64,000 bases of DNA from positions 1,472,001 to 1,536,000 of the forward strand of contig OZ240215.1 in NCBI GenBank assembly GCA_965197585.1. Direction: 5' to 3'. Shown one piece after another: positions 40,654 through 60,916 of the stretch. Every line of letters starts with the position of its first letter. Within the stretch, counting starts at the first letter, position 1. Position numbers and translations under genes: made by a program. Under the pieces are notes generated by a model that saw only the letters and a list, made by a program, of their open reading frames with translations, searched no databases and was not told the DNA's origin. Source of the stretch: Dehalococcoidia bacterium. GTDB lineage: Bacteria; Chloroflexota; Dehalococcoidia; Plut-88900.

Positions 40654-41709
40654 TGTGGATGTCAGGTAATTCGTTGACAGAATTAGATGGATTTAAGGGT
40701 CTCCAAAGGGGTCTTTCCGTCCATTGCCTGGTGGGGTCTCTGAGTATTGTAGTAGATCAGGTATTGCTGAAGCTCGTCCTTCAGTTCCGAGACCGATTCG
40801 AAGGTTGTCCCCTCCAGCAGGTCCTCGTTCAAGGTTCTCCAGAACCGCTCTATCTTCCCGTTGGTCTGGGGCCTATAAGGGCGGGTGTAGCGGTGCTTTA
40901 TGCCCAGCTCATTGAGCATCCGTTCCATGGGGTGGCCCTCGGTGTTCCTTGGGGAGGCCATCTCGGGGCCGTTGTCGGTGAGGATGGCCTCGAATTGGAT
41001 GCCGTACTCCACGTTAAGGAAATTGATGGACTTCAGAGTAGCAAACATAACGGAGAGACTCTTGATGTCTCCGACCACTTCGGCCCAGGCCAGACGGGTG
41101 TAGGCGTCGATGAGGCCCACCAGGTAGTAGCGGTGCTTGGTGCCCACGATGGTATCCCGGCTGAGGTAGTGGCTGTCCAGGTGGCCCAGCTCTCCTGCCC
41201 GGGTCTTGATGATCTTGCGCTTCGACTGCTGCATCGGCTTTGTGAGCCTATTGAAACCGTGGCGTCTGGTGATGGCGTAGATGGTGGAGGGCTTAGGGGT
41301 GTTGTGTTTAAGGATGGGTTTGAGTATGGCATAGATCTCGTAACGGTTGGTACCGTTAAGGCGCTCGTTGATGACCTTCTGCTCAATGTAGGGCAGGGTG
41401 CGGCGGGACTTCCACCCGGGACCCCGCTTACGGGGGAGGAAGGCGTTGTCGGAGGGGGAGAGGAGGAACCGGTTGTAGTACTTGGCAAAGGTCTGACGGC
41501 TAGTGCCGTGGAAGGAGTAGAAGTCCTGGGCGAAGCGGAAACGGGGATGCTTCCCTGCCTTGACCAGTTGATACTCATGGATGAGGAACCGCCACTTCTG
41601 AATGTAGTTACGTTCAAGGGTGAGGTCCTTGCTATTGTCTCGCATTCTCGCCTCCAGATTGGTGTTGGCCTCTTATACCAATCTGTCAACGAATTACCTA
41701 ACACTTACA
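40654..41709 (-). mobile_element. IS481-family insertion sequence (1056 bp) with 5-bp TSD ATTCC, inserted in repeat family A
   Basis: TIRs TGTggaTGTcAGGTAATTCGTTGACAGA / TGTaagTGTtAGGTAATTCGTTGACAGA (24 of 28 match); ATTCC at 40649-40653 and 41710-41714. Confidence 0.92.
40683..41645 (-). CDS. IS481-family DDE transposase (integrase core)
   Basis: GHLD, IDAYTR, LTDNGPE, TRPYRPQTNGKIERF, YNTQRPHQ; intact 320 aa ORF. Confidence 0.92.
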   Translation of the reverse strand: MRDNSKDLTLERNYIQKWRFLIHEYQLVKAGKHPRFRFAQDFYSFHGTSRQTFAKYYNRFLLSPSDNAFLPRKRGPGWKSRRTLPYIEQKVINERLNGTNRYEIYAILKPILKHNTPKPSTIYAITRRHGFNRLTKPMQQSKRKIIKTRAGELGHLDSHYLSRDTIVGTKHRYYLVGLIDAYTRLAWAEVVGDIKSLSVMFATLKSINFLNVEYGIQFEAILTDNGPEMASPRNTEGHPMERMLNELGIKHRYTRPYRPQTNGKIERFWRTLNEDLLEGTTFESVSELKDELQQYLIYYNTQRPHQAMDGKTPLETLKSI

Positions 41710-54907: not shown

Positions 54908-57900
54908 ATGAACACAAAGAAGCTAACCACAGCGGTCGAGGATTATTTTGCAGACCTGCGCCGGATTCGCGCCTCCGGCGGCGCAACGGATGAACTCTCT
55001 TACTATCCCCCTCTAACCAATCTTCTGAACGCTGTCGGCGGCACGCTCAAGCCCAAGGTGTTCTGCATCAGTCAGCTTGCGCAGCAAGGTGCTGGTCATC
55101 CCGACTTCGGACTCTACGCTGCACGACAGATCCAGAAAGGCAAACACAACCAGGGGCAAATCCCGGAATGCGGAGTGTTGGAAGTTAAGCCCGTTGGTGA
55201 CGACGCCTGGCTGACAGCCGAAGGCGATCAGGTAAGCAAGTACTGGAACAAGTACCGGCTCGTCCTGGTCACCAACACCCGAGACTTCGTCCTGCTCGGT
55301 GAGGATGAAGCGGGCAGGCCCGCAAAGCTGGAGACCTTCCGGCTGGCCCAGTCCGCGGAAGAGTTCGAGTCCTCGCTAGAGAAACCCCGAGCCTTCGCAG
55401 GTAAGACCAGTGCAGGTCTGGGAGAGTACCTCTCCCGTTCCCTCTCCCACCGAGCAACACTTGTCGAACCCAAAGATTTGGCATGGCTGCTCGCCTCCTA
55501 CGCCCGAGACGGCTTGGCGCGGGTAGAAGCGGCGGGCGACGCACCATCCCTCGCTGCGGTGCGCTCAGCGTTGGAAGAGGCTTTGGGCGTACGATTCGAG
55601 GGAGATAAGGGAGTTGCATTCTTCCGCTCAACCCTCGTCCAGACCCTCTTCTACGGCGTCTTCTCTGCCTGGGTACTCTGGGCAAAGCAGACGCCACCTC
55701 CAAACGGCCCCTTTAATTGGCATGATTCCGTCTGGCACCTGCGTGCTCCTGTACTGAGGGCACTCTTCCAGCAGTTGTCGGACCCCGGTCGCCTGCAACC
55801 CTTGGGGCTTGTCGAAGTCTTGGACTGGACCGCCACTGCTCTTGACCGCGTTGACCGCTCCGCCTTCTTCGACCGATTCAACGAGGGTGAGGCCGTCCCC
55901 TACTTCTACGAGCCGTTTCTGCAGGCGTTCGACCCTGCCCTCCGCAAACAGCTTGGAGTTTGGTACACGCCTATAGAAGTCGTGCGCTACATGGTGGCCC
56001 GGGTGGACCGCGCGCTCAAAGATGATTTGGGCATTGCGGATGGCCTGGCCGCCGAGAACGTCTATGTGCTGGACCCCTGTTGCGGCACAGGTGCATATCT
56101 TGCGGAGGTTCTCCGGCGCATTGCCGACAATCTCAAGGAACGTGGTTTCGGTGCCCTCACCGGCGCACGAGTCAAACAAGCCGCAACTCAGAGAGTATTC
56201 GGCTTCGAAATAATGCCCGCTCCCTTCGTCGTCTCCCACCTGCAAGTCGGCTTGACCATGCAGGCATTGGACGCGCCGCTGTCAGAGGACGGGACAGAGC
56301 GAGCCGGAGTCTTCCTGACCAACGCCCTTACCGGCTGGGAGCCGCGAGTGCAGAAGCCGCTGCCCTTCCCGGAGTTGGAGGAGGAGCGAGAACGCGCCGA
56401 GAAAGTGAAGCAAGACACGCCGGTTCTCGTAATCTTGGGCAATCCGCCCTACAACGGCTTCGCCGGCATGGCGGTGGACGAGGAGCACGAGCTTTCGGCG
56501 GCCTACCGGACGACCAAGCATGTGCAGCCGCCAGAAGGGCAGGGATTGAATGACTTGTATGTGCGGTTCTTCCGCATGGCAGAGCGGCGTATCACCGAGA
56601 AGACAGGCCAGGGTGTGGTCTGTTTCATCTCCAACTACTCATGGCTGGACGGGCTCTCCTTCACTGGAATGAGGGAGCGCTATCTTAAAGCCTTCGACGC
56701 TATTCGTATCGATAATCTCAACGGCGACAAATATAAGACCGGCAAAACTACGCCCGAAGGCGCACCTGATCCAAGTGTCTTTTCAACCCCGGAGAACCCG
56801 GTAGGCATTCAGGTCGGGACCGCAATAACCACCCTTGTGCGTAGGGCCGACCACTCCCCTTCCGGGACCATCGGCTTCCGCCACCTCTGGGGCCAAACCA
56901 AGCGAGAAGAACTTACGGTGACGGCAGAGACTGATACGAATGCCATCTACGACAGTATTGAGCCGAGTCTAACACTCGGGCTGCCTTTCGCACGGATGGC
57001 GGTCAGTAAGGACTGGCACAGTTGGCCATCGCTGCCTGATCTATTTCCAGCCTCGTTTCCCGGCGTAAAGACTAGTCGGGATTCGTTCCTAGTGGACGTT
57101 GACATTGATCGGCTAAAGGCGAGAGTTCAAGATTATTTCAACGCCGAGTTGAGCCACGAAGTAATCGCTCAACATCACCCGGCAGTTATGAATGCCATCA
57201 GCAACTTCAAACCGCGCGCGGTGCGCGACACCCTAATCAAACGTGGAGGCCCTAACGAGGAAGGCTTTCTCCAATACGCCTACCGCCCCTTCGATGAACG
57301 GCGGCTTTACTGGGAAACAGGTGCAAAACTACTTGATCGTCCGCGCCCTGAATACAAACCGCATGTATTCAAGGGCAACCGTTGGCTAGTCACTCAGCAG
57401 AAACCTCGTAGAGAGTGGTCGCCTCCACAGGTCATTGCGCACATAGGATGCCTAGACCTCATGGATCGGGGCGCAACTTGCCTTCCCTTTTATCTACGTG
57501 ATGACGGACTGGGGACCAAAAAAGTTGACGAAACCTTGTGCAGTCCTAACCTATCGCCAGCCGCTGAATACTACCTTGAACGCATGGGGGCAAACGCAGA
57601 AGACTTGTTCCATCACGTCCTCGCCGTTCTCCACAACCCGGCCTATCAAGAGACCAATGCCGGAGCGTTACGGATGCAGTGGCCCCGCATACCCCTTCCC
57701 GGCTGGCCTGACGGCAAAGAGAACGGAGCGGCAAACAAGCTTGCAGCATCCGCGATGCGAGGCAAGGAATTGGCTGCACTGCTGGATTCGGACACACCCG
57801 TGCCTGGTGTGACCGAAGGTGCATTGCGCACGGATATTTCATCTATTACCGTCCCATCGACCGACGACGGCGGTAACATGGCCGGAGACGACTTCGCACT

Positions 57901-58252
57901 GACTGTCGGCTGGGGCCATTTCGGGCAGGGTGAGGCAGTCATGCCAGGCCAGGGCCAGGTTATCGAGCGCCCATACACATCTGATGAGCGCACCACACTA
58001 GGCAATGCTGCGCGGACCCTCGGTGACACTACGTTCGACATTTGCTTAAACGACCGCGCTTACTGGCGCAACGTCCCGGAAGCCGTTTGGAACTACAAGC
58101 TCGGTGGCTACCAGGTCCTCAAAAAGTGGCTGTCGTATCGGGAGCGCAGAGTTTTGGGTCGGAATCTGAAGCCGGACGAGGTCCAGCACTTCACCGACAC
58201 TGCGCGGCGGATAGCGGCCATCTTGACGCTCGTGGCCCAACCCCTCCCCTGA
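54908..58252 (+). CDS. Single-chain restriction-modification enzyme (N6-adenine MTase with Type ISP-like C-terminal specificity domain; Type IIG/IIL-like)
   Basis: N-terminal PD..EVK nuclease-like motif, LVLVTN, GVWYTP, VLDPCCGTG, GNPPY, YRPFD, GGYQVLKKWLSYR; no helicase motifs seen. Confidence 0.85.
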   Translation: MNTKKLTTAVEDYFADLRRIRASGGATDELSYYPPLTNLLNAVGGTLKPKVFCISQLAQQGAGHPDFGLYAARQIQKGKHNQGQIPECGVLEVKPVGDDAWLTAEGDQVSKYWNKYRLVLVTNTRDFVLLGEDEAGRPAKLETFRLAQSAEEFESSLEKPRAFAGKTSAGLGEYLSRSLSHRATLVEPKDLAWLLASYARDGLARVEAAGDAPSLAAVRSALEEALGVRFEGDKGVAFFRSTLVQTLFYGVFSAWVLWAKQTPPPNGPFNWHDSVWHLRAPVLRALFQQLSDPGRLQPLGLVEVLDWTATALDRVDRSAFFDRFNEGEAVPYFYEPFLQAFDPALRKQLGVWYTPIEVVRYMVARVDRALKDDLGIADGLAAENVYVLDPCCGTGAYLAEVLRRIADNLKERGFGALTGARVKQAATQRVFGFEIMPAPFVVSHLQVGLTMQALDAPLSEDGTERAGVFLTNALTGWEPRVQKPLPFPELEEERERAEKVKQDTPVLVILGNPPYNGFAGMAVDEEHELSAAYRTTKHVQPPEGQGLNDLYVRFFRMAERRITEKTGQGVVCFISNYSWLDGLSFTGMRERYLKAFDAIRIDNLNGDKYKTGKTTPEGAPDPSVFSTPENPVGIQVGTAITTLVRRADHSPSGTIGFRHLWGQTKREELTVTAETDTNAIYDSIEPSLTLGLPFARMAVSKDWHSWPSLPDLFPASFPGVKTSRDSFLVDVDIDRLKARVQDYFNAELSHEVIAQHHPAVMNAISNFKPRAVRDTLIKRGGPNEEGFLQYAYRPFDERRLYWETGAKLLDRPRPEYKPHVFKGNRWLVTQQKPRREWSPPQVIAHIGCLDLMDRGATCLPFYLRDDGLGTKKVDETLCSPNLSPAAEYYLERMGANAEDLFHHVLAVLHNPAYQETNAGALRMQWPRIPLPGWPDGKENGAANKLAASAMRGKELAALLDSDTPVPGVTEGALRTDISSITVPSTDDGGNMAGDDFALTVGWGHFGQGEAVMPGQGQVIERPYTSDERTTLGNAARTLGDTTFDICLNDRAYWRNVPEAVWNYKLGGYQVLKKWLSYRERRVLGRNLKPDEVQHFTDTARRIAAILTLVAQPLP

Positions 58253-58654
58253 CCCCACCCCCATTCCGAGGCCCCGCGAGGAATCTACAGCGCCCCTCCC
58301 TAATTCCACCTTGTCCGCTGAAACCCACCCACTCCATCCGTCATTCCGGCCCCCGAGCCGGAATCCAGCCCTTCCTTCTACCCAGTATTGAACTAGAGGC
58401 CCGCACGGGTGCTGTGCACCCGTGCGGGCCTCTGTTCTTATCTCCCCCCTAACGTCAATCCCGACTCCGATCGGGAATCCATCCCCCTCCCCCCAGTACT
58501 GAATTAGAGGCCCACGTGCGTGCAGAGCACGCACGTGGGCCTCTATTCTTATCTCCCCCTCTCCCTTGAAGGCCCTAAGGGAGAGGGGGACAAAGGGGGT
58601 GAGGGTTCCCCGGTGAGGCTGGGGAGGTGTCTCCCCAAGTGTGACATGAACCCC

Positions 58655-58684
58655 TTGACCCTACTTGAACACCCGTGCTATTAT
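58655..58684 (+). promoter_or_regulatory. Putative sigma70 promoter with an overlapping LexA-like box
   Basis: TTGACC(58655)-N18-TATTAT(58679) with extended TG; GAAC-ACCC-GTGC at 58667-58678. Confidence 0.45.
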
Positions 58685-58873
58685 CCTCACCGTTCGAACA
58701 CCAGCCTAACTATCTCAAGGAGGAACCAAAAACCCAGGGAAGCCCACCCGGCCCCATCCGAGGACTCAACGCCTAAGCCCATCCCAACGGCCCATACACG
58801 GGGCCCGCGGCACAAGCGACCGGCGCCATCTCCTCATCCCCACCGGGTCCCGTGCACCCTTCCCTATCCCCCA

Positions 58874-59303
58874 GGCGATGGAAAGACGCCCTGGTTCGCT
58901 ATCGTTCCATGTGAGGCTCCTAACGGAGATGCCGCTCCTTCAAGCGGAATAGTGGTCGGATAGGCCCGGCGCCGAGGTCCTCTCGGTACCCCGACCGCTC
59001 AATCAAGCCGGGAGCCGGTGGTCCCTGCACTCCGGGTCGCACCGGCAAACTTGGACATATTACGCCTGCAAGAGGCTCCACCCGGACGCTGGACGAGCCT
59101 CCTAGCCGCCCTATAGCGGTGCAGCCAACCCCTCGGAGTCAGGCTCGGACTTGGTGGCCCTGACGGTCCCTGCCCATGTCCAGCGTATACAGGGCCAAAG
59201 GCCGCAGCAGCGGCAAAAGCGGGCCGGACGCCCTTGCCCCGGGGTGTCGGAGCACCCGAAGCACAGGAACGGGGGCAGCGTCCAGCAAGCGTCTTTCATC
59301 GCC
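58874..59303 (+). ncRNA. Candidate large structured non-coding RNA of unknown class (~430 nt)
   Basis: Terminal helix GGCGATG(G)AAAGACGC / GCGTCTTTCATCGCC, extended inner helix, many hairpins, potential pseudoknots; no credible ORF. Confidence 0.65.
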
Positions 59304-59390
59304 AACCACCCAGACAGAACAACCAAAACCCCACCCTCCCACAACTGAATAAACCGGCGTGTCACTATCCCACCCAACGAGTGCACTCCC

Positions 59391-59419
59391 TTGACCCCAC
59401 CCCCCAACCCCTCTAATAT
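59391..59419 (+). promoter_or_regulatory. tRNA promoter
   Basis: TTGACC-N17-TAATAT, 11 nt upstream of the tRNA. Confidence 0.6.
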
Positions 59420-59430
59420 CTCCCCGCGAT

Positions 59431-59505
59431 GCGGGAGTAGCTCAGCGGTAGAGCCCCTGCCTTCCAAGCAGGCTGTCGCCGGTTCGAATCCGGTCTCCCG
59501 CTCCA
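59431..59505 (+). tRNA. tRNA-Gly (anticodon TCC)
   Basis: GCGGGAG/CTCCCGC acceptor stem + TCCA, D arm TAGCTCAGCGGTAGAGC, anticodon arm CCTGC-CTTCCAA-GCAGG, GGTTCGAATCC. Confidence 0.97.
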
Positions 59506-59506
59506 C

Positions 59507-60691
59507 TCACAGGCTCGCCAACGCCTGTCCCAGGTCCGACTCGATGTCCTCCGCCGACTCTATCCCGCAGGACATCCGGATCAGCCCGCCGTAGATTCCA
59601 ACCTCCTCCCGCTCCCCCTCCGTCAAAGACCTGTGCGACGTCTTCGCCGGGTGCGAAACCGTCGTGCACGTCTCCCCCAGGCTCGCCGCGAACCTGATCA
59701 TCTTCAAAGACCGTATGAACTTCGACGCCGCCTCCACCCCTCCCCTCAGCTCGAACGACACCATGCTCCCGAAACCACCCTCCAACGTCGACTTCGCCAA
59801 CTCATGCTGCGGGTGACTGTCCAGACCCGGATAGTGAACGGCCGCCACCGCCGCGTGCCCCGACAGATATTCCGCCGCCCTCGTGGCATTTTCGCAAGTG
59901 CGAGCCACCCTCAATGGCAGCGTCCGAATCCCCCGTACGATTAACCACGCTGCAAACGGGTCCAACGTACTTCCCCACACCCTGTTCGACTGCCGTATCG
60001 ACGCCATCGCCTCGAACCTCCCCGCCGCCACCCCTCCCATCACGTCCGAGTGTCCGCCTAACAGCTTCGTTGCACTGTGGATTGTCACGTCCGCGCCCAA
60101 TTCCAGGGGCCGCATCAGCAGTGGCGTCGCCAGCGTGTTGTCCACTACCACCTGCACGCCCCTCTCACCCGCCAACCGGGCAATCCCCTCCACGTCCGTC
60201 AGCCGGAGCAGAGGGTTCGTTAACGACTCGACGAGAATGACCTTAGGCAACCGCTCTAAAGCCCGCTCAACCAGCCCCAGGTCCGTCACATCCACGAGCT
60301 CCACCCGAACCCCGAGCCTCGGCAGATGTTGCCTCAGCAGCAGGTTCGTACCTCCGTACAACACGTCCCCCGCCAAAACCGTGTCCCCAGCCTCTGCCAT
60401 CGAAAGCAGCGTGTTACCGATCGCCCCCATCCCCGAGGCAAACGCCACCGCATCGTCGGCATTCTCCAGCTCCGCCACGACCCTTTCCAGGTTCTCCACG
60501 TTGGGGTTTCCATCTCGGGAGTAGATAAAGCCGTCTTTGTTTCCCGCATAGATGTCGTCCAGCAATTCCAGGCTTTCGACCTCGAAGACGGATCCCTGGT
60601 AAATGGGCGCCATCAAGGGCCTCGTCGCCGACTCCACGTCCCTCCCCGCCGACGCGCATATACTCTCCACCGACCGCCTCTTGCCGTTCAC
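59507..60691 (-). CDS. PLP-dependent trans-sulfuration enzyme (cystathionine gamma-synthase/methionine gamma-lyase family)
   Basis: YSRDGNP, FASGMGAI, YGGT, VDNT, HSATKLLGGHSD, SLGE, RMSCGIE; start uncertain. Confidence 0.88.
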   Translation of the reverse strand: MNGKRRSVESICASAGRDVESATRPLMAPIYQGSVFEVESLELLDDIYAGNKDGFIYSRDGNPNVENLERVVAELENADDAVAFASGMGAIGNTLLSMAEAGDTVLAGDVLYGGTNLLLRQHLPRLGVRVELVDVTDLGLVERALERLPKVILVESLTNPLLRLTDVEGIARLAGERGVQVVVDNTLATPLLMRPLELGADVTIHSATKLLGGHSDVMGGVAAGRFEAMASIRQSNRVWGSTLDPFAAWLIVRGIRTLPLRVARTCENATRAAEYLSGHAAVAAVHYPGLDSHPQHELAKSTLEGGFGSMVSFELRGGVEAASKFIRSLKMIRFAASLGETCTTVSHPAKTSHRSLTEGEREEVGIYGGLIRMSCGIESAEDIESDLGQALASL

Positions 60692-60916
60692 TGCATTTGC
60701 CCTTTCTACCTTGAGTCCTCCCTGAACCCTAGTGCCCAGCCTAGGCAAGATGCCCAGGCTCCGCTCCCTTGAGGATACTATTTCGTAATCGTCATTCCGA
60801 GGCTCCGCGAGGAATCTGGGGAGAGGTCTTATCCCCTCTCCCTCGATGGGAGAGGGCTAGGGTGAGGGTGTTCCGATGCTTACAATCAACATGACGCAAA
60901 CCTAAGCCCCCCTACC

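What the first reader, a model, noticed from the sequence alone, without database searches (positions are those of the whole stretch)
58874..59303. ~430-nt ornate, apparently pseudoknotted RNA candidate upstream of tRNA-Gly
Seen in sequence: 58874-58889 pairs with 59289-59303 (15 bp, one bulge) and continues inward (CTGG/CCAG, CGCT/AGCG, CGTTCC-a-TGTG 58903-13 / CACAGGAACG 59262-71), closing a multibranch domain. Internal helices include CTCC-taac-GGAG (58917-28), CCGCT/AGCGG (58932-47), GGTCGG/CCGACC (58954-96), GCCGGTG/CACCGGC (59014-46), CTGCA/TGCAG (59066-124) enclosing GAGGCTC/GAGCCTC, TGGCCCTG/CAGGGCCA (59155-97) and GACGCCC/GGGTGTC. Crossing pairings: CCCGGC (58965-70) with GCCGGG (59007-12), and a 9-bp loop-loop match ACGCTGGAC (59086-94) with GTCCAGCGT (59178-86). 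TGGACAT (59052-58) is an alternative partner for the same loop. A-rich linkers and G.U pairs favour the + strand, and the segment lacks the C-skew of its flanks. I see no RNase P, tmRNA, SRP, 6S or group II intron hallmarks. Inference: a large functional RNA, possibly of an undescribed class. GOLLD RNAs are an established precedent for large RNAs near tRNAs.
Basis: partly seen in the sequence, partly recalled or inferred. Interest (0 to 1): 0.85.

Follow-up and report, generated by a model that had tools for sequence, protein, structure and literature searches.

The report
Folded RNA core of promoter-hopping repeat
The 430-base stretch is a real, intricately folded RNA-like module, but it is one copy of a protein-less mobile repeat found 57 times in this bacterial genome, which lands just in front of gene promoters and matches no catalogued RNA family.

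Summary
No Rfam 15 family matches.

It is not a single RNA gene beside tRNA-Gly. It is the core of one copy (about 58250-59385) of a repeat unit found 57 times in this 3.43-Mb genome. The leader occurs in 8 of 8 other genomes of the genus searched and in 0 of 52 outside it.

Each unit has a promoter-like site, a conserved C-rich leader, a 325-553-nt core closed by GGCGATGGAAG/CTTCCATCGCC, and an A/C-rich tail. Complete copies end TG...CA. They carry 5-bp target duplications, and one empty site was found in relatives. The right end sits 5 bp upstream of a TTGAC (-35-like) box in 25 of 41 junctions. No copy holds a protein gene. The ends resemble those of a resident IS481-like insertion sequence.

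The fold is conserved.

Verdict: a new large structured RNA module carried by a promoter-targeting non-autonomous transposon of sponge-associated Dehalococcoidia. Its function is unknown. Expression rests on weak evidence.

The parts
58250..59385 (+). Whole repeat unit of this locus (about 1.14 kb). Its left end is shortened and a hairpin-repeat array has been inserted.
   Evidence: The right boundary 59385|59386 is fixed by relatives that have the tRNA-Gly promoter without the unit. The left boundary is inferred from homology starts at 58236-58262, the G002 homology start at 58241 and the end-like TGACCCCACCCCC at 58250.
58244..58248 (+). Possible left copy of the 5-bp target duplication (CTCCC).
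   Evidence: Read. It matches 59386-59390. The region is C-rich, so a chance match is not excluded.
58253..58630 (+). Array of REP-like hairpin repeats inside the left part of the unit ('type b' copies).
   Evidence: Many short repeat hits. 19-bp hairpins at 58394-58434 and 58505-58545. A copy at G000 937284 has the normal left end, then such an array, then the promoter.
58655..58684 (+). The unit's own sigma-70-type promoter-like site P1 (TTGACC-18-TATTAT, TG before the -10), preceded by GTGACAT at 58641-58647.
   Evidence: 10 of 12 matches; 2 sites found against 0.3 +/- 0.6 in shuffles. The -35 and -10 are conserved while the spacer varies across the 57 copies.
58685..58873 (+). Conserved C-rich leader, including a Shine-Dalgarno-like AAGGAGGAACC (58717-58727) with no start codon after it.
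   Evidence: 57 full-length leader copies by nhmmer. Alignment consensus. GC skew about -0.4.
58874..59303 (+). Folded core (the finding). It is closed by GGCGATGGAAAGACGC/GCGTCTTTCATCGCC plus CTGG/CCAG, CGCT/AGCG, CGTTCC/GGAACG and TGTG/CACA.
   Evidence: Every one of the 57 leaders is followed by a core with this closing helix. The inner part of the helix covaries between subfamilies (GACGC/GCGTC, GGTCC/GGACC, GATGC/GCATC).
58948..59050 (+). 5' domain: helix 58951-59/58991-99, hairpin CCGAG/CUCGG 58972-86, hairpin 59014-20/59040-46, and crossing pairing 58965-70/59007-12.
   Evidence: Model R2 and counts. The crossing pairing, read by eye, is CCCGGC/GCCGGG (c7), GCAGCCC/GGGCUGC (c5), ACCCCC/GGGGGU (c2, c1) and ACCCC/GGGGU (c3).
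59062..59200 (+). 3' domain: three-way junction 59066-59124; hairpin GGAC/GUCC 59147-50/59166-69; helix 59155-62/59190-97, which crosses that hairpin; loop-loop pairing 59086-94/59178-86.
   Evidence: Models R1 and R3 and counts. Subfamily comparison.
59304..59385 (+). A/C-rich, G-poor tail and right terminal repeat (59356-59385, ...GTGTCACTATCCCACCCAACGAGTGCA).
   Evidence: Tail comparison across 57 copies. Right-end motif. GC skew -0.36 to -0.42.
59386..59390 (+). 5-bp target duplication, right copy (CTCCC).
   Evidence: Relatives without the unit read ...CCCTCCCTTGACC... at this place. 5-bp duplications are seen at other copies.
59391..59419 (+). Host promoter of tRNA-Gly (TTGACC-17-TAATAT). 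It is the target of the insertion, not part of the unit.
   Evidence: The same promoter stands before tRNA-Gly in G001, G005 and G008, which lack the unit.
59431..59505 (+). tRNA-Gly(TCC), the host gene downstream.
40654..41709 (-). One of about 20 copies of a 1056-nt IS481-like insertion sequence, the candidate source of the transposase that moves the units.
   Evidence: ORF 40683-41645 (-), 320 aa: best NCBIfam hit is the IS481 family, E 3.2e-54, 184 bits, below the 224-bit cut-off; Pfam rve_3 and rve. It has TGT...ACA ends and a 5-bp duplication. Its left end matches the unit's consensus right end at 18 of 30 ungapped positions (my count), and the window copy's right end at 14 of 30.

Best explanation
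The 430 nt are the folded core of one copy of a protein-less mobile unit of about 0.75-1.15 kb.

Shown:
- The unit is dispersed 57 times in this genome and occurs throughout the genus.
- Complete copies end 5'-TG...CA-3' with imperfect inverted repeats of about 30 bp.
- They are flanked by 5-bp target duplications and are missing from the same site in relatives.
- The right end lies 5 bp upstream of a TTGAC (-35-like) box, with the unit's own promoter-like site pointing the same way as the host promoter.
- The core's helices, three-way junction and loop-loop contact are kept by compensatory changes between subfamilies, so the fold itself is under selection.

Inferred:
- The unit is moved in trans by an IS481-family DDE transposase, whose resident ~20-copy IS has related ends and the same 5-bp duplication.
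- P1 transcribes leader, core and tail on the + strand.
- The RNA acts in cis at its own copy. A purely trans-acting RNA would let copies with broken folds spread equally well, and the fold would not be kept across subfamilies.

My committed guess for the last step, at about 0.3: the folded core, set between two C-rich, G-poor stretches, works as a co-transcriptional gate. It decides whether transcripts from P1 end inside the unit or run on into the host gene. That would make insertion next to promoters tolerable or useful.
For: - Copy number and architecture: 57 full-length leaders, each followed by a core closed by GGCGATGGAAG...CTTCCATCGCC, 325-553 nt, with no ORF-bearing copy.
- Distribution of the leader: 8 of 8 other genomes of the genus, 0 of 52 outside it.
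- Distribution of the RNA domain (model R3): 5 of 5 genus genomes sampled, 0 of 145 other genomes of the class.
- Mobility: identical 5-bp duplications at 7 of 15 copies with both ends, and 4 of 5 matching at 4 more (read by eye).
- Empty site: G001 reads ...CCAAATGC|CTCC..., where G000 has ...CCAAATGC|TGTACTCG...GGGATCA|AATGC|.... G004 and G007 also lack the unit there.
- Target: 41 distinct right junctions show T37 T32 G34 A26 C27 of 41 at +6..+10. TTGAC with at most 1 mismatch occurs in 25 of 41, against 1.5% of random 5-mers. 20 of those 25 have TAnnnT 16-19 nt further on.
- The tRNA-Gly promoter exists without the unit in G001, G005 and G008.
- Orientation: the longest downstream ORF is co-oriented in 44 of 57 units (a crude measure).
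- Promoter: and conservation of -35 and -10 with a free spacer.
- Fold: as given under the observation check. G.U 34 against A.C 13 at paired positions.
- Transposase candidate.
- RNA libraries: contigs of two metatranscriptome runs labelled sponge metagenome (X19, X20, one study) and one probable RNA run (X18) lie on 58769-59301. 2 of the 15 laid contigs of X19 are at least 99% alike.
Against: - Within the window's own subfamily, departures from pairing are about as often A.C as G.U (about 88 vs 100 by my tally). Individual copies therefore seem to drift after insertion, which does not fit an RNA needed at every locus.
- The - strand folds at least as well (z -3.08 vs -2.05).
- RNA evidence consists of low-depth contigs without strand or ends. 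The tool warns that DNA can be present in such libraries.
- No autonomous element with the same ends was found. The IS ends are only 60% alike (18 of 30; 14 of 30 for the window copy), and that IS targets a REP-like hairpin, not TTGAC.
- Only about 25 of 57 units keep the complete right end.
- The nested-helix counts come from model-fitted alignments.
- Group-B cores (GGCGATGGAAGGTCC...) were not shown to share the fold. Models R1 and R2 did not retrieve subfamilies c3 and c1.
- The gate mechanism has no direct support. Termination and Rho dependence were not tested.
Confidence: 0.6

Rival explanations
1. The RNA is needed for the movement of its own element. The nascent folded transcript, still tethered to its template, recruits or activates the transposase or helps choose the TTGAC target (RNA-assisted DDE transposition).
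For: The fold is kept among proliferating lineages while single copies drift. This is what selection at the level of the element predicts. Target choice is unusually exact and orientation is fixed. The promoter is conserved in all 57 copies.
Against: No IS481/IS3-type transposase is known to me to need an RNA (recalled, not searched). No complementarity between the unit and the IS exceeds shuffles: longest match 10 nt, shuffle mean 10.2. I found no conserved loop complementary to TTGAC.
Confidence: 0.12
2. An ordinary miniature transposon. The inner helices are leftovers or DNA-level features, and any transcript has no function.
For: Dispersed copies, duplications and an empty site. Near-neutral variation within a subfamily. 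The - strand folds as well. Cores differ greatly between subfamilies and seem exchangeable: G005 has another core at the same site.
Against: Compensatory changes occur in 17 of 37 and 10 of 24 pairs, with 0 of 500 shuffles reaching the observed scores. They include a loop-loop contact that no DNA hairpin needs. G.U exceeds A.C. Promoter and leader are conserved in 57 of 57 copies.
Confidence: 0.12
3. A trans-acting, host-useful large RNA (in the manner of GOLLD, ROOL, OLE or 6S RNA) that happens to be spread by a transposon. Copy number serves dosage.
For: Size, ornate fold and kissing loops. Own promoter. A closing helix of about 25-30 bp that could be an RNase III processing stem (inference). 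RNA-library contigs lie on the core.
Against: More than 20 divergent subfamilies coexist. Copies drift. The RNA is restricted to one genus. A trans-acting product does not explain why the fold is kept in each spreading lineage.
Confidence: 0.1
4. A guide or scaffold RNA of an RNA-guided protein (IscB/TnpB omega-RNA, IS110 bridge RNA) or a retroelement RNA.
For: Multi-copy structured RNAs without an adjacent ORF are known for HEARO/omega-RNAs (recalled).
Against: No match to PF07282 (TnpB/Cas12f zinc ribbon) and none to PF00078 (reverse transcriptase) in the closed 3.43-Mb genome, with controls positive. No Rfam HEARO or group II hit. TG...CA ends and 5-bp duplications are not IS200/IS605 or IS110 features. 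IscB and IS110 families themselves were not searched.
Confidence: 0.03

Closest known systems
Bacterial MITEs that carry promoters or are transcribed and fold as RNA (Correia/NEMIS of Neisseria, ERIC/IRU, RUP, BOX). These features are recalled, not tested here.
   Same: Protein-less, dispersed, intergenic, with terminal inverted repeats and target duplications. Presumably moved in trans by a resident IS transposase. Can affect neighbouring gene expression.
   Different: This unit is 0.75-1.15 kb, not about 100-300 bp. It is strongly asymmetric (leader, core, tail), not a long palindrome. It carries a conserved inward promoter and a 325-553-nt core with a three-way junction and crossing pairings kept by covariation. 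It inserts at a fixed 5 bp from a -35-like box in one orientation.
HEARO / OMEGA (IscB, TnpB) transposon-borne RNAs
   Same: A large, pseudoknotted RNA carried by a mobile element, in many copies per genome, mostly without a neighbouring protein gene.
   Different: No Rfam HEARO match. No TnpB-type zinc ribbon in the genome. The element has inverted-repeat TG...CA ends and 5-bp duplications, which IS200/IS605 elements lack (recalled).
GOLLD, ROOL and OLE large ornate RNAs (Rfam; cryo-EM paper PMC12286853, seen only as a search listing and abstract start)
   Same: Several hundred nucleotides, multi-junction with long-range contacts, function unknown, often linked to mobile DNA or tRNAs.
   Different: No sequence or structure match at E up to 10. 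Far higher copy number. Many divergent subfamilies. Restricted to one genus. Inside a duplication-flanked transposon.
IS481-family insertion sequences
   Same: TGT...ACA-type ends, a 5-bp duplication and an rve DDE transposase are found in the resident IS. The unit's ends share TGTA..GTT.GGTA..T...TGACA with it.
   Different: The unit has no transposase. Its ends are only about 60% like those of the resident IS. Its target (TTGAC box) differs from that IS's target (REP-like hairpin).

Membership tests
Non-autonomous DDE transposon (MITE-like) | Terminal inverted repeats | tested here: met
   Left end TGATCCCGTTCACATAGAGGGGTGACA..., right end ...GTGTCACTAAYCTACCGAACGAGTACA. The outer 11 nt match at 8 of 11, followed by CGTTC-N9/10-GTGACA (my alignment).
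Non-autonomous DDE transposon (MITE-like) | Target-site duplication and an empty site in a relative | tested here: met
   5-bp duplications identical at 7 of 15 complete copies. G001, G004 and G007 lack the unit at the tRNA-Pro locus. The G001 junction shows a single AATGC.
Non-autonomous DDE transposon (MITE-like) | No transposase gene inside; many dispersed copies | tested here: met
   57 copies with cores of 325-553 nt and no long ORF-bearing copy.
Non-autonomous DDE transposon (MITE-like) | Small size (usually under about 0.6 kb) and a mostly palindromic body | tested here: not met
   Units are about 750-1150 bp and asymmetric: both flanks are C-rich on the same strand.
Non-autonomous DDE transposon (MITE-like) | A parent autonomous element with the same ends | tested here: inconclusive
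   The end motifs occur only at units in G000. The ~20-copy IS481-like IS has related ends only (18 of 30). Other genomes of the genus were not scanned for a parent.
Any Rfam 15 family (RNase P, tmRNA, SRP, 6S, group I/II introns, GOLLD, ROOL, OLE, HEARO, riboswitches) | Covariance-model score at or above the gathering threshold | tested here: not met
   Only tRNA passes in the 64-kb window. At E up to 10 on 58400-59600, only two weak rows touch 58874-59303: FsrA at 58971-59040 (13.3 bits, E 8.8) and Six3os1_5 at 58848-59011 (9.4 bits, E 4.4).
OMEGA/HEARO RNA | Association with IscB/TnpB or IS200/IS605 ends | tested here: not met
   PF07282 gives 0 matches in G000 with controls positive. Duplications and inverted repeats are present. 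IscB-specific families were not searched.
Retroelement RNA (group II intron, retron) | A reverse transcriptase in the genome | tested here: not met
   PF00078 gives 0 matches in G000.
Structured non-coding RNA (generic) | Secondary structure kept by compensatory substitutions | tested here: met
   with shuffle and slide controls. Manual comparison of 6 subfamilies.
Structured non-coding RNA (generic) | A discrete transcript of defined strand and ends | not testable with these tools
   Only contigs of RNA libraries could be laid. They give no strand or ends.
IS481 family (the IS at window 40654-41709) | Transposase matching the family model above its cut-off | tested here: inconclusive
   Best NCBIfam hit is IS481, E 3.2e-54, but 184.4 bits is below the 224-bit cut-off. 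TGT...ACA ends and a 5-bp duplication fit.

The most novel reading that the evidence does not exclude
A transposable RNA device. A DDE-type non-autonomous transposon homes to the -35 box of promoters, and its spread depends on a self-encoded, cis-acting, pseudoknotted RNA of about 400 nt. That RNA would work either as a cofactor of transposition or target choice, or as a mobile riboregulator that couples dozens of host promoters to one RNA sensor. Either way it would be a new class of large functional RNA and a new way for a mobile element to use RNA.
Probability: 0.2. Interest if true: 0.9.

Novelty: new variant of a known kind. Interest (0 to 1): 0.7.

Why it matters
Large bacterial RNAs with conserved tertiary contacts are rare, and most known ones turned out to be ribozymes, riboswitches or protein scaffolds. 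This one has hundreds of natural variants (about 40-80 copies in each of nine genomes, more than 20 subfamilies). That gives exceptional power for covariation analysis and makes it a good candidate for structure determination.

It also links two fields. A protein-less transposon keeps an RNA fold, which argues that the RNA matters for the element or for its effect on the neighbouring promoter. And the element inserts at a fixed distance from -35 boxes, an unusual target rule that places a promoter plus a structured leader in front of many host genes. If the RNA gates read-through or aids transposition, this would be a new mechanism.

If it proves inert, the finding still explains about 1.5% of this genome (my estimate: 57 units of roughly 0.9 kb in 3.43 Mb). 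It also warns against calling such repeats single-locus ncRNAs.

Tried and rejected
Known RNA families. Rfam at gathering threshold on the whole window, and at E up to 10 on 58400-59600. There were no credible hits in the core, only two weak rows overlapping it (FsrA, 13.3 bits, E 8.8; Six3os1_5, 9.4 bits, E 4.4). The other hits lie on the palindromic hairpins at 58494-58608.

tRNA linkage. Only 2 of 57 units have a tRNA within 450 nt downstream. Rejected as a defining feature.

Guide-RNA and retroelement readings. No TnpB-type zinc ribbon and no reverse transcriptase in G000.

Antisense control of the IS. The longest unit/IS complementarity is 10 nt, equal to shuffles.

Autonomous copy.
- The one unit without a nearby closing motif (G000 2539589) has a slightly degenerate closure, not a gene.
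- The 1.3-kb insert in unit 660864 is an unrelated single-copy IS.

Second empty site. The G005 locus for unit 416484 proved to be a deletion remnant that keeps about 20 nt of the right end. It is not a pristine empty site.

Structure prediction on alignments.
- RNAalifold on a plain MAFFT alignment of 22 divergent cores gave only 24 pairs, because the alignment is not structure-consistent. I therefore used two domain covariance models.
- Per-subfamily MFE consensus folds differ in detail and were not used as evidence.
- A formal count for the crossing pairing 58965-70/59007-12 was not made. In alignment A7 its 3' strand is shifted by one column between subfamilies. The pairing is reported from reading only.

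Within-subfamily covariation was uninformative.

Plasmid and phage collections gave no match in distant mode.

Papers. Five full-text searches listed nothing that describes this repeat or RNA. I read only listings and abstract starts, no paper in full. Supplements were not seen.

RNA runs. The parts of 58400-59600 without cover in X18-X20 (58400-58727 apart from a thin X18 trace at 58523-58604, most of 59302-59424, and 59507-59600) are no evidence. I noted that 58523-58768 has the highest depth in DNA run X1, but I draw no conclusion from the holes.

Full report
**1. The observation**

The region 58253-59430 is intergenic. It lies between a 1114-aa Type ISP-like restriction/methylase ORF (54908-58252; Pfam Type_ISP_C, N6_Mtase, Eco57I) and tRNA-Gly(TCC) at 59431-59505.

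GC skew is near 0 in the segment and about -0.4 on both sides.

Folding of the single sequence is only modestly better than shuffles. The + strand gives z -2.05, with 2 of 100 shuffles as good. The - strand gives z -3.08.

No Rfam 15 family reaches threshold anywhere in the window except tRNA. At E up to 10, the core is touched only by two weak, far sub-threshold rows: FsrA (13.3 bits, E 8.8) and Six3os1_5 (9.4 bits, E 4.4).

**2. It is a repeat**

The 430 nt match four further full-length places in the same genome (G000, 3.43 Mb, one contig) at 85-94% identity, plus one variant copy at 79% (query 1-40 and 59-430). They also match many places in 6 of 8 genomes of the same genus, always over 1-430.

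The terminal 15-mers bound 36 units of 378-527 nt whose interiors differ. The flanks are repeated as well. The upstream 250 nt ('leader', 58631-58883) occur 57 times at full length (nhmmer). Every leader is followed by a core that begins GGCGATGGAAG and ends CTTCCATCGCC 325-553 nt later. No copy contains a protein gene.

The leader is found in 8 of 8 other genomes of the genus and in 0 of 52 genomes outside it, including 3 other genera of the family.

Of the 80 rows printed, 77 are titled 'MAG: Dehalococcoidia bacterium'. The 3 others are within my estimate of about 8 chance matches.

**3. Anatomy of the unit**

From left to right:
- The left end, TGATCCCGTTCACATAGAGGGGTGACAT....
- A promoter-like site (TTGAC, spacer 17-18, TATnnT) whose hexamers are conserved while the spacer varies. 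In the window it is 58655-58684, matching 10 of 12 with a TG before the -10.
- About 35 variable nt.
- A highly conserved C-rich leader beginning with AAGGAGGAACC and lacking a start codon.
- The core.
- An A/C-rich, G-poor linker (AACCCAAAACCCAACAGACAGAAC...).
- 0-3 small hairpin modules.
- CTGAATAAAA, then the right end ...GTGTCACTAAYCTACCGAACGAGTACA.

About 25 of 57 units keep the complete right end. In 'type b' copies, including the window's, a chain of REP-like hairpins sits between the left end and the promoter.

**4. Mobility**

Of 15 copies with both ends, 7 have identical 5-bp direct repeats outside the TG...CA termini, and 4 more match at 4 of 5 (read by eye).

At the tRNA-Pro locus, G001 has the two flanks 27 nt apart and reads ...GCTTCCGTCCAAATGC|CTCC.... 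G000 has ...CCAAATGC|unit|AATGC|TTCT... at the same place. G004 and G007 also lack the unit there. G002 has it. G005 has a unit at the same site whose leader, tail and flanks align but whose core does not.

Upstream of tRNA-Gly, G001, G005 and G008 carry the same promoter (..CTCCCTTGACC-17-TAATAT) without the unit. Homology to the window begins at 59386.

**5. Target**

In 41 distinct right junctions (19 from G000, 22 from relatives), the five bases after the end show no strong consensus. Positions +6 to +10 read T37 T32 G34 A26 C27 of 41. TTGAC with at most one mismatch occurs in 25 of 41, against 1.5% of random 5-mers. 20 of those 25 are followed by TAnnnT after 16-19 nt.

The unit therefore sits 5 bp upstream of -35-like boxes, with its own promoter pointing the same way. 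The longest downstream ORF is co-oriented in 44 of 57 units (crude).

**6. Who moves it**

G000 has 29 rve-domain matches. About 20 of them belong to a 1056-nt IS at 99% identity, and one copy lies in the window at 40654-41709. Its 320-aa transposase is best matched by the IS481 family (E 3.2e-54, below the curated cut-off).

This IS has TGT...ACA ends and makes a 5-bp duplication inside a REP-like hairpin. Its left end and the consensus right end of the unit agree at 18 of 30 ungapped positions (my count), in the pattern TGTA...GTT.GGTA..T...TGACA. The window copy agrees at 14 of 30.

I infer trans-mobilisation by this or a related IS481-type transposase. It is not shown. No TnpB-type domain and no reverse transcriptase were found in the genome.

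**7. The fold is conserved**

The 151 distinct cores from G000 and relatives fall into 22 subfamilies at roughly 55% identity. The window's core belongs to cluster 7, with 25 members. There are two supergroups: A (..GAAGACGCC..) and B (..GAAGGTCC..).

Among six group-A subfamilies the same architecture recurs with different sequences.

| Subfamily | Junction stem | Second stem | Third stem | Loop-loop pairing |
|---|---|---|---|---|
| c7 (window) | CUGCA/UGCAG | GAGGCUC/GAGCCUC | GCCGC/GCGGU | GCUGGAC/GUCCAGC |
| c5 | CUGCG/CGCAG | GGGGAA/UUCCCC | CCGCC/GGCGG | CCUGGA/UCCAGG |
| c2 | CUGU/ACAG | GGGGCC/GGCCCC | UGCC/GGCA | GCUGGAU/AUCGAGC (one mismatch) |
| c3 | CUGA/UCAG | GGGGGCC/GGCCCCC | AUGCC/GGCAU | GCCCGAU/AUCGAGC (one mismatch) |
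| c1 | CUGU/ACAG | GGGGC/GCCCC | GCCC/GGGC | GCUGGAU/AUCUAGC |
| c6 | CUGU/ACAG | GGGGCC/GGCCCC | CUGC/GCAG | GCUGGAC/GUCGAGC (one mismatch) |

The window's three-way junction is at 59066-59124. Its loop-loop pairing is 59086-94/59178-86.

A covariance model of 59062-59200, built from six cluster-7 sequences, retrieved 40 matches from subfamilies c7, c5, c6 and c2. On that alignment 89.0% of cells pair, against 81.3% in shuffles and 33-47% with slid partners. 17 of 37 pairs changed on both sides. The loop-loop helix, not in the model, pairs in 85.8% of cells. The crossing helix 59155-62/59190-97 pairs in 70.5%.

A model of 58948-59050 gave 36 matches, 93.7% paired against 85.6% (shuffles) and 27-49% (slid), with 10 of 24 pairs compensatory.

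The crossing pairing 58965-70/59007-12 is CCCGGC/GCCGGG in c7, GCAGCCC/GGGCUGC in c5, ACCCCC/GGGGGU in c2 and c1, and ACCCC/GGGGU in c3. This was read. No formal count was possible because the alignment is shifted by one column.

G.U outnumbers A.C at paired positions 34 to 13. Together with the promoter direction, this favours the + strand.

Against ongoing constraint at each locus: within cluster 7, departures to A.C (about 88) are nearly as common as to G.U (about 100) (my tally).

A broader model of the 3' domain (R3) finds the domain in 5 of 5 genus genomes sampled and in 0 of 145 other genomes of the class. These are a sample scored with stricter filters, so the domain was 'not found in those searched'.

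**8. Expression**

Twenty public runs from ten studies hold parts of the stretch. Contigs of two metatranscriptome libraries labelled sponge metagenome (X19, X20; one study) and one probable RNA run (X18) lie on 58769-59301 and on the tRNA. 2 of the 15 laid contigs of X19 are at least 99% alike.

Contigs give no strand, ends or level, and DNA may be present in such libraries. This is a weak hint only.

**9. Interpretation**

Shown: a dispersed, duplication-flanked, protein-less unit with a conserved promoter-like site and a core whose intricate fold is kept by compensatory change. It inserts at a fixed distance from -35-like boxes.

Inferred:
- It is moved in trans by an IS481-type transposase.
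- It is transcribed from P1 on the + strand.
- The RNA acts in cis. A purely trans-acting product would allow copies with broken folds to spread, so the fold would not persist across subfamilies.

The precise role is open. I rank the possibilities as follows:
- A co-transcriptional gate between two C-rich, G-poor stretches that sets how much P1 transcription reaches the host gene (about 0.3 within the main reading).
- An RNA needed for the element's own movement (0.12).
- An inert MITE (0.12).
- A trans-acting host RNA (0.10).
- A guide or retroelement RNA (0.03).

**10. Comparison and novelty**

The unit works like a MITE and meets the inverted-repeat, duplication, no-gene and multi-copy criteria. 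It fails the usual size and palindromic-body criteria, and no parent with the same ends was found.

The core resembles HEARO/omega-RNAs in being a multi-copy, transposon-borne, pseudoknotted RNA. It resembles GOLLD, ROOL and OLE in size and ornateness. It matches none of them and sits in a different kind of element.

Five literature searches listed nothing describing it (listings only). The plasmid and phage collections have no match.

I rate it a new variant of known kinds: a mobile-element-borne structured RNA and a promoter-targeting non-autonomous transposon.

Noticed in passing
window 40654-41709 (-): A 1056-nt IS481-like insertion sequence with about 20 copies at 99% identity in G000. 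It always sits, with a 5-bp duplication ATTCC, inside the REP-like hairpin GTCATTCC-GAGGCNCCGCGAG-GAATC, so it is a hairpin-targeting IS.
   Followed up: partly
window 58253-58630: A chain of several kinds of REP-like hairpin repeats. 58262-58287 alone has about 50 matches in G000. Two 19-bp perfect hairpins (58394-58434, 58505-58545) are each followed by TTCTTATCTC and score as terminator-like.
   Followed up: partly
window 54908-58252 (+): A 1114-aa Type ISP-like restriction/methylase ORF (Pfam Type_ISP_C, N6_Mtase, Eco57I). Its stop codon TGA (58250-58252) falls in the first bases of the repeat unit. The gene is not at this locus in G001, and G002's homology to the window starts only at 58241, so this is a variable defence-gene spot.
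   Followed up: partly
G000:C1:3404962-3405100: A solo left end of the unit (TGATCCCGTTCACATAGAGGGGTGACATCACCCCC) stands directly before the -35 of a groES-groEL operon that has a CIRCE-like inverted repeat (TTAGCACTC-N9-GAGTGCTAA; the name is recalled). It may be what remains after loss of the unit's body.
   Followed up: no
G005:C1:1116605-1118863 (L139/L143) versus G000:C1:2398200-2400500 (L133): At the same insertion site the two species carry units with alignable flanks, leader and tail, but a core that does not align (350 vs 388 nt between the aligned parts). This suggests exchange of cores between units.
   Followed up: no
G000:C1:659345-660640: An unrelated single-copy IS (438-aa rve ORF, different ends) interrupts a unit exactly at the -35 of the unit's own promoter.
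   Followed up: partly
G000 whole genome: Units are unevenly oriented: 40 on the + strand and 17 on the - strand. Most - copies lie beyond 2.68 Mb. The relation to replication direction was not examined.
   Followed up: no
L145 (G005:C1:1370189-1373895), around locus position 2207: At the site of G000 unit 416484, G005 keeps only about 20 nt of the unit's right end plus the duplication. This is a deletion derivative showing that units are also lost.
   Followed up: partly
window 59506-59507, and L029/L034, L030/L033, L031/L035: The distance between tRNA-Gly and the Cys/Met-metabolism PLP enzyme gene (59507-60748, -) varies. The two abut in G000, are about 410 nt apart in G005, about 2 kb apart in G001, and about 3.2 kb apart in G006 and G008.
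   Followed up: no
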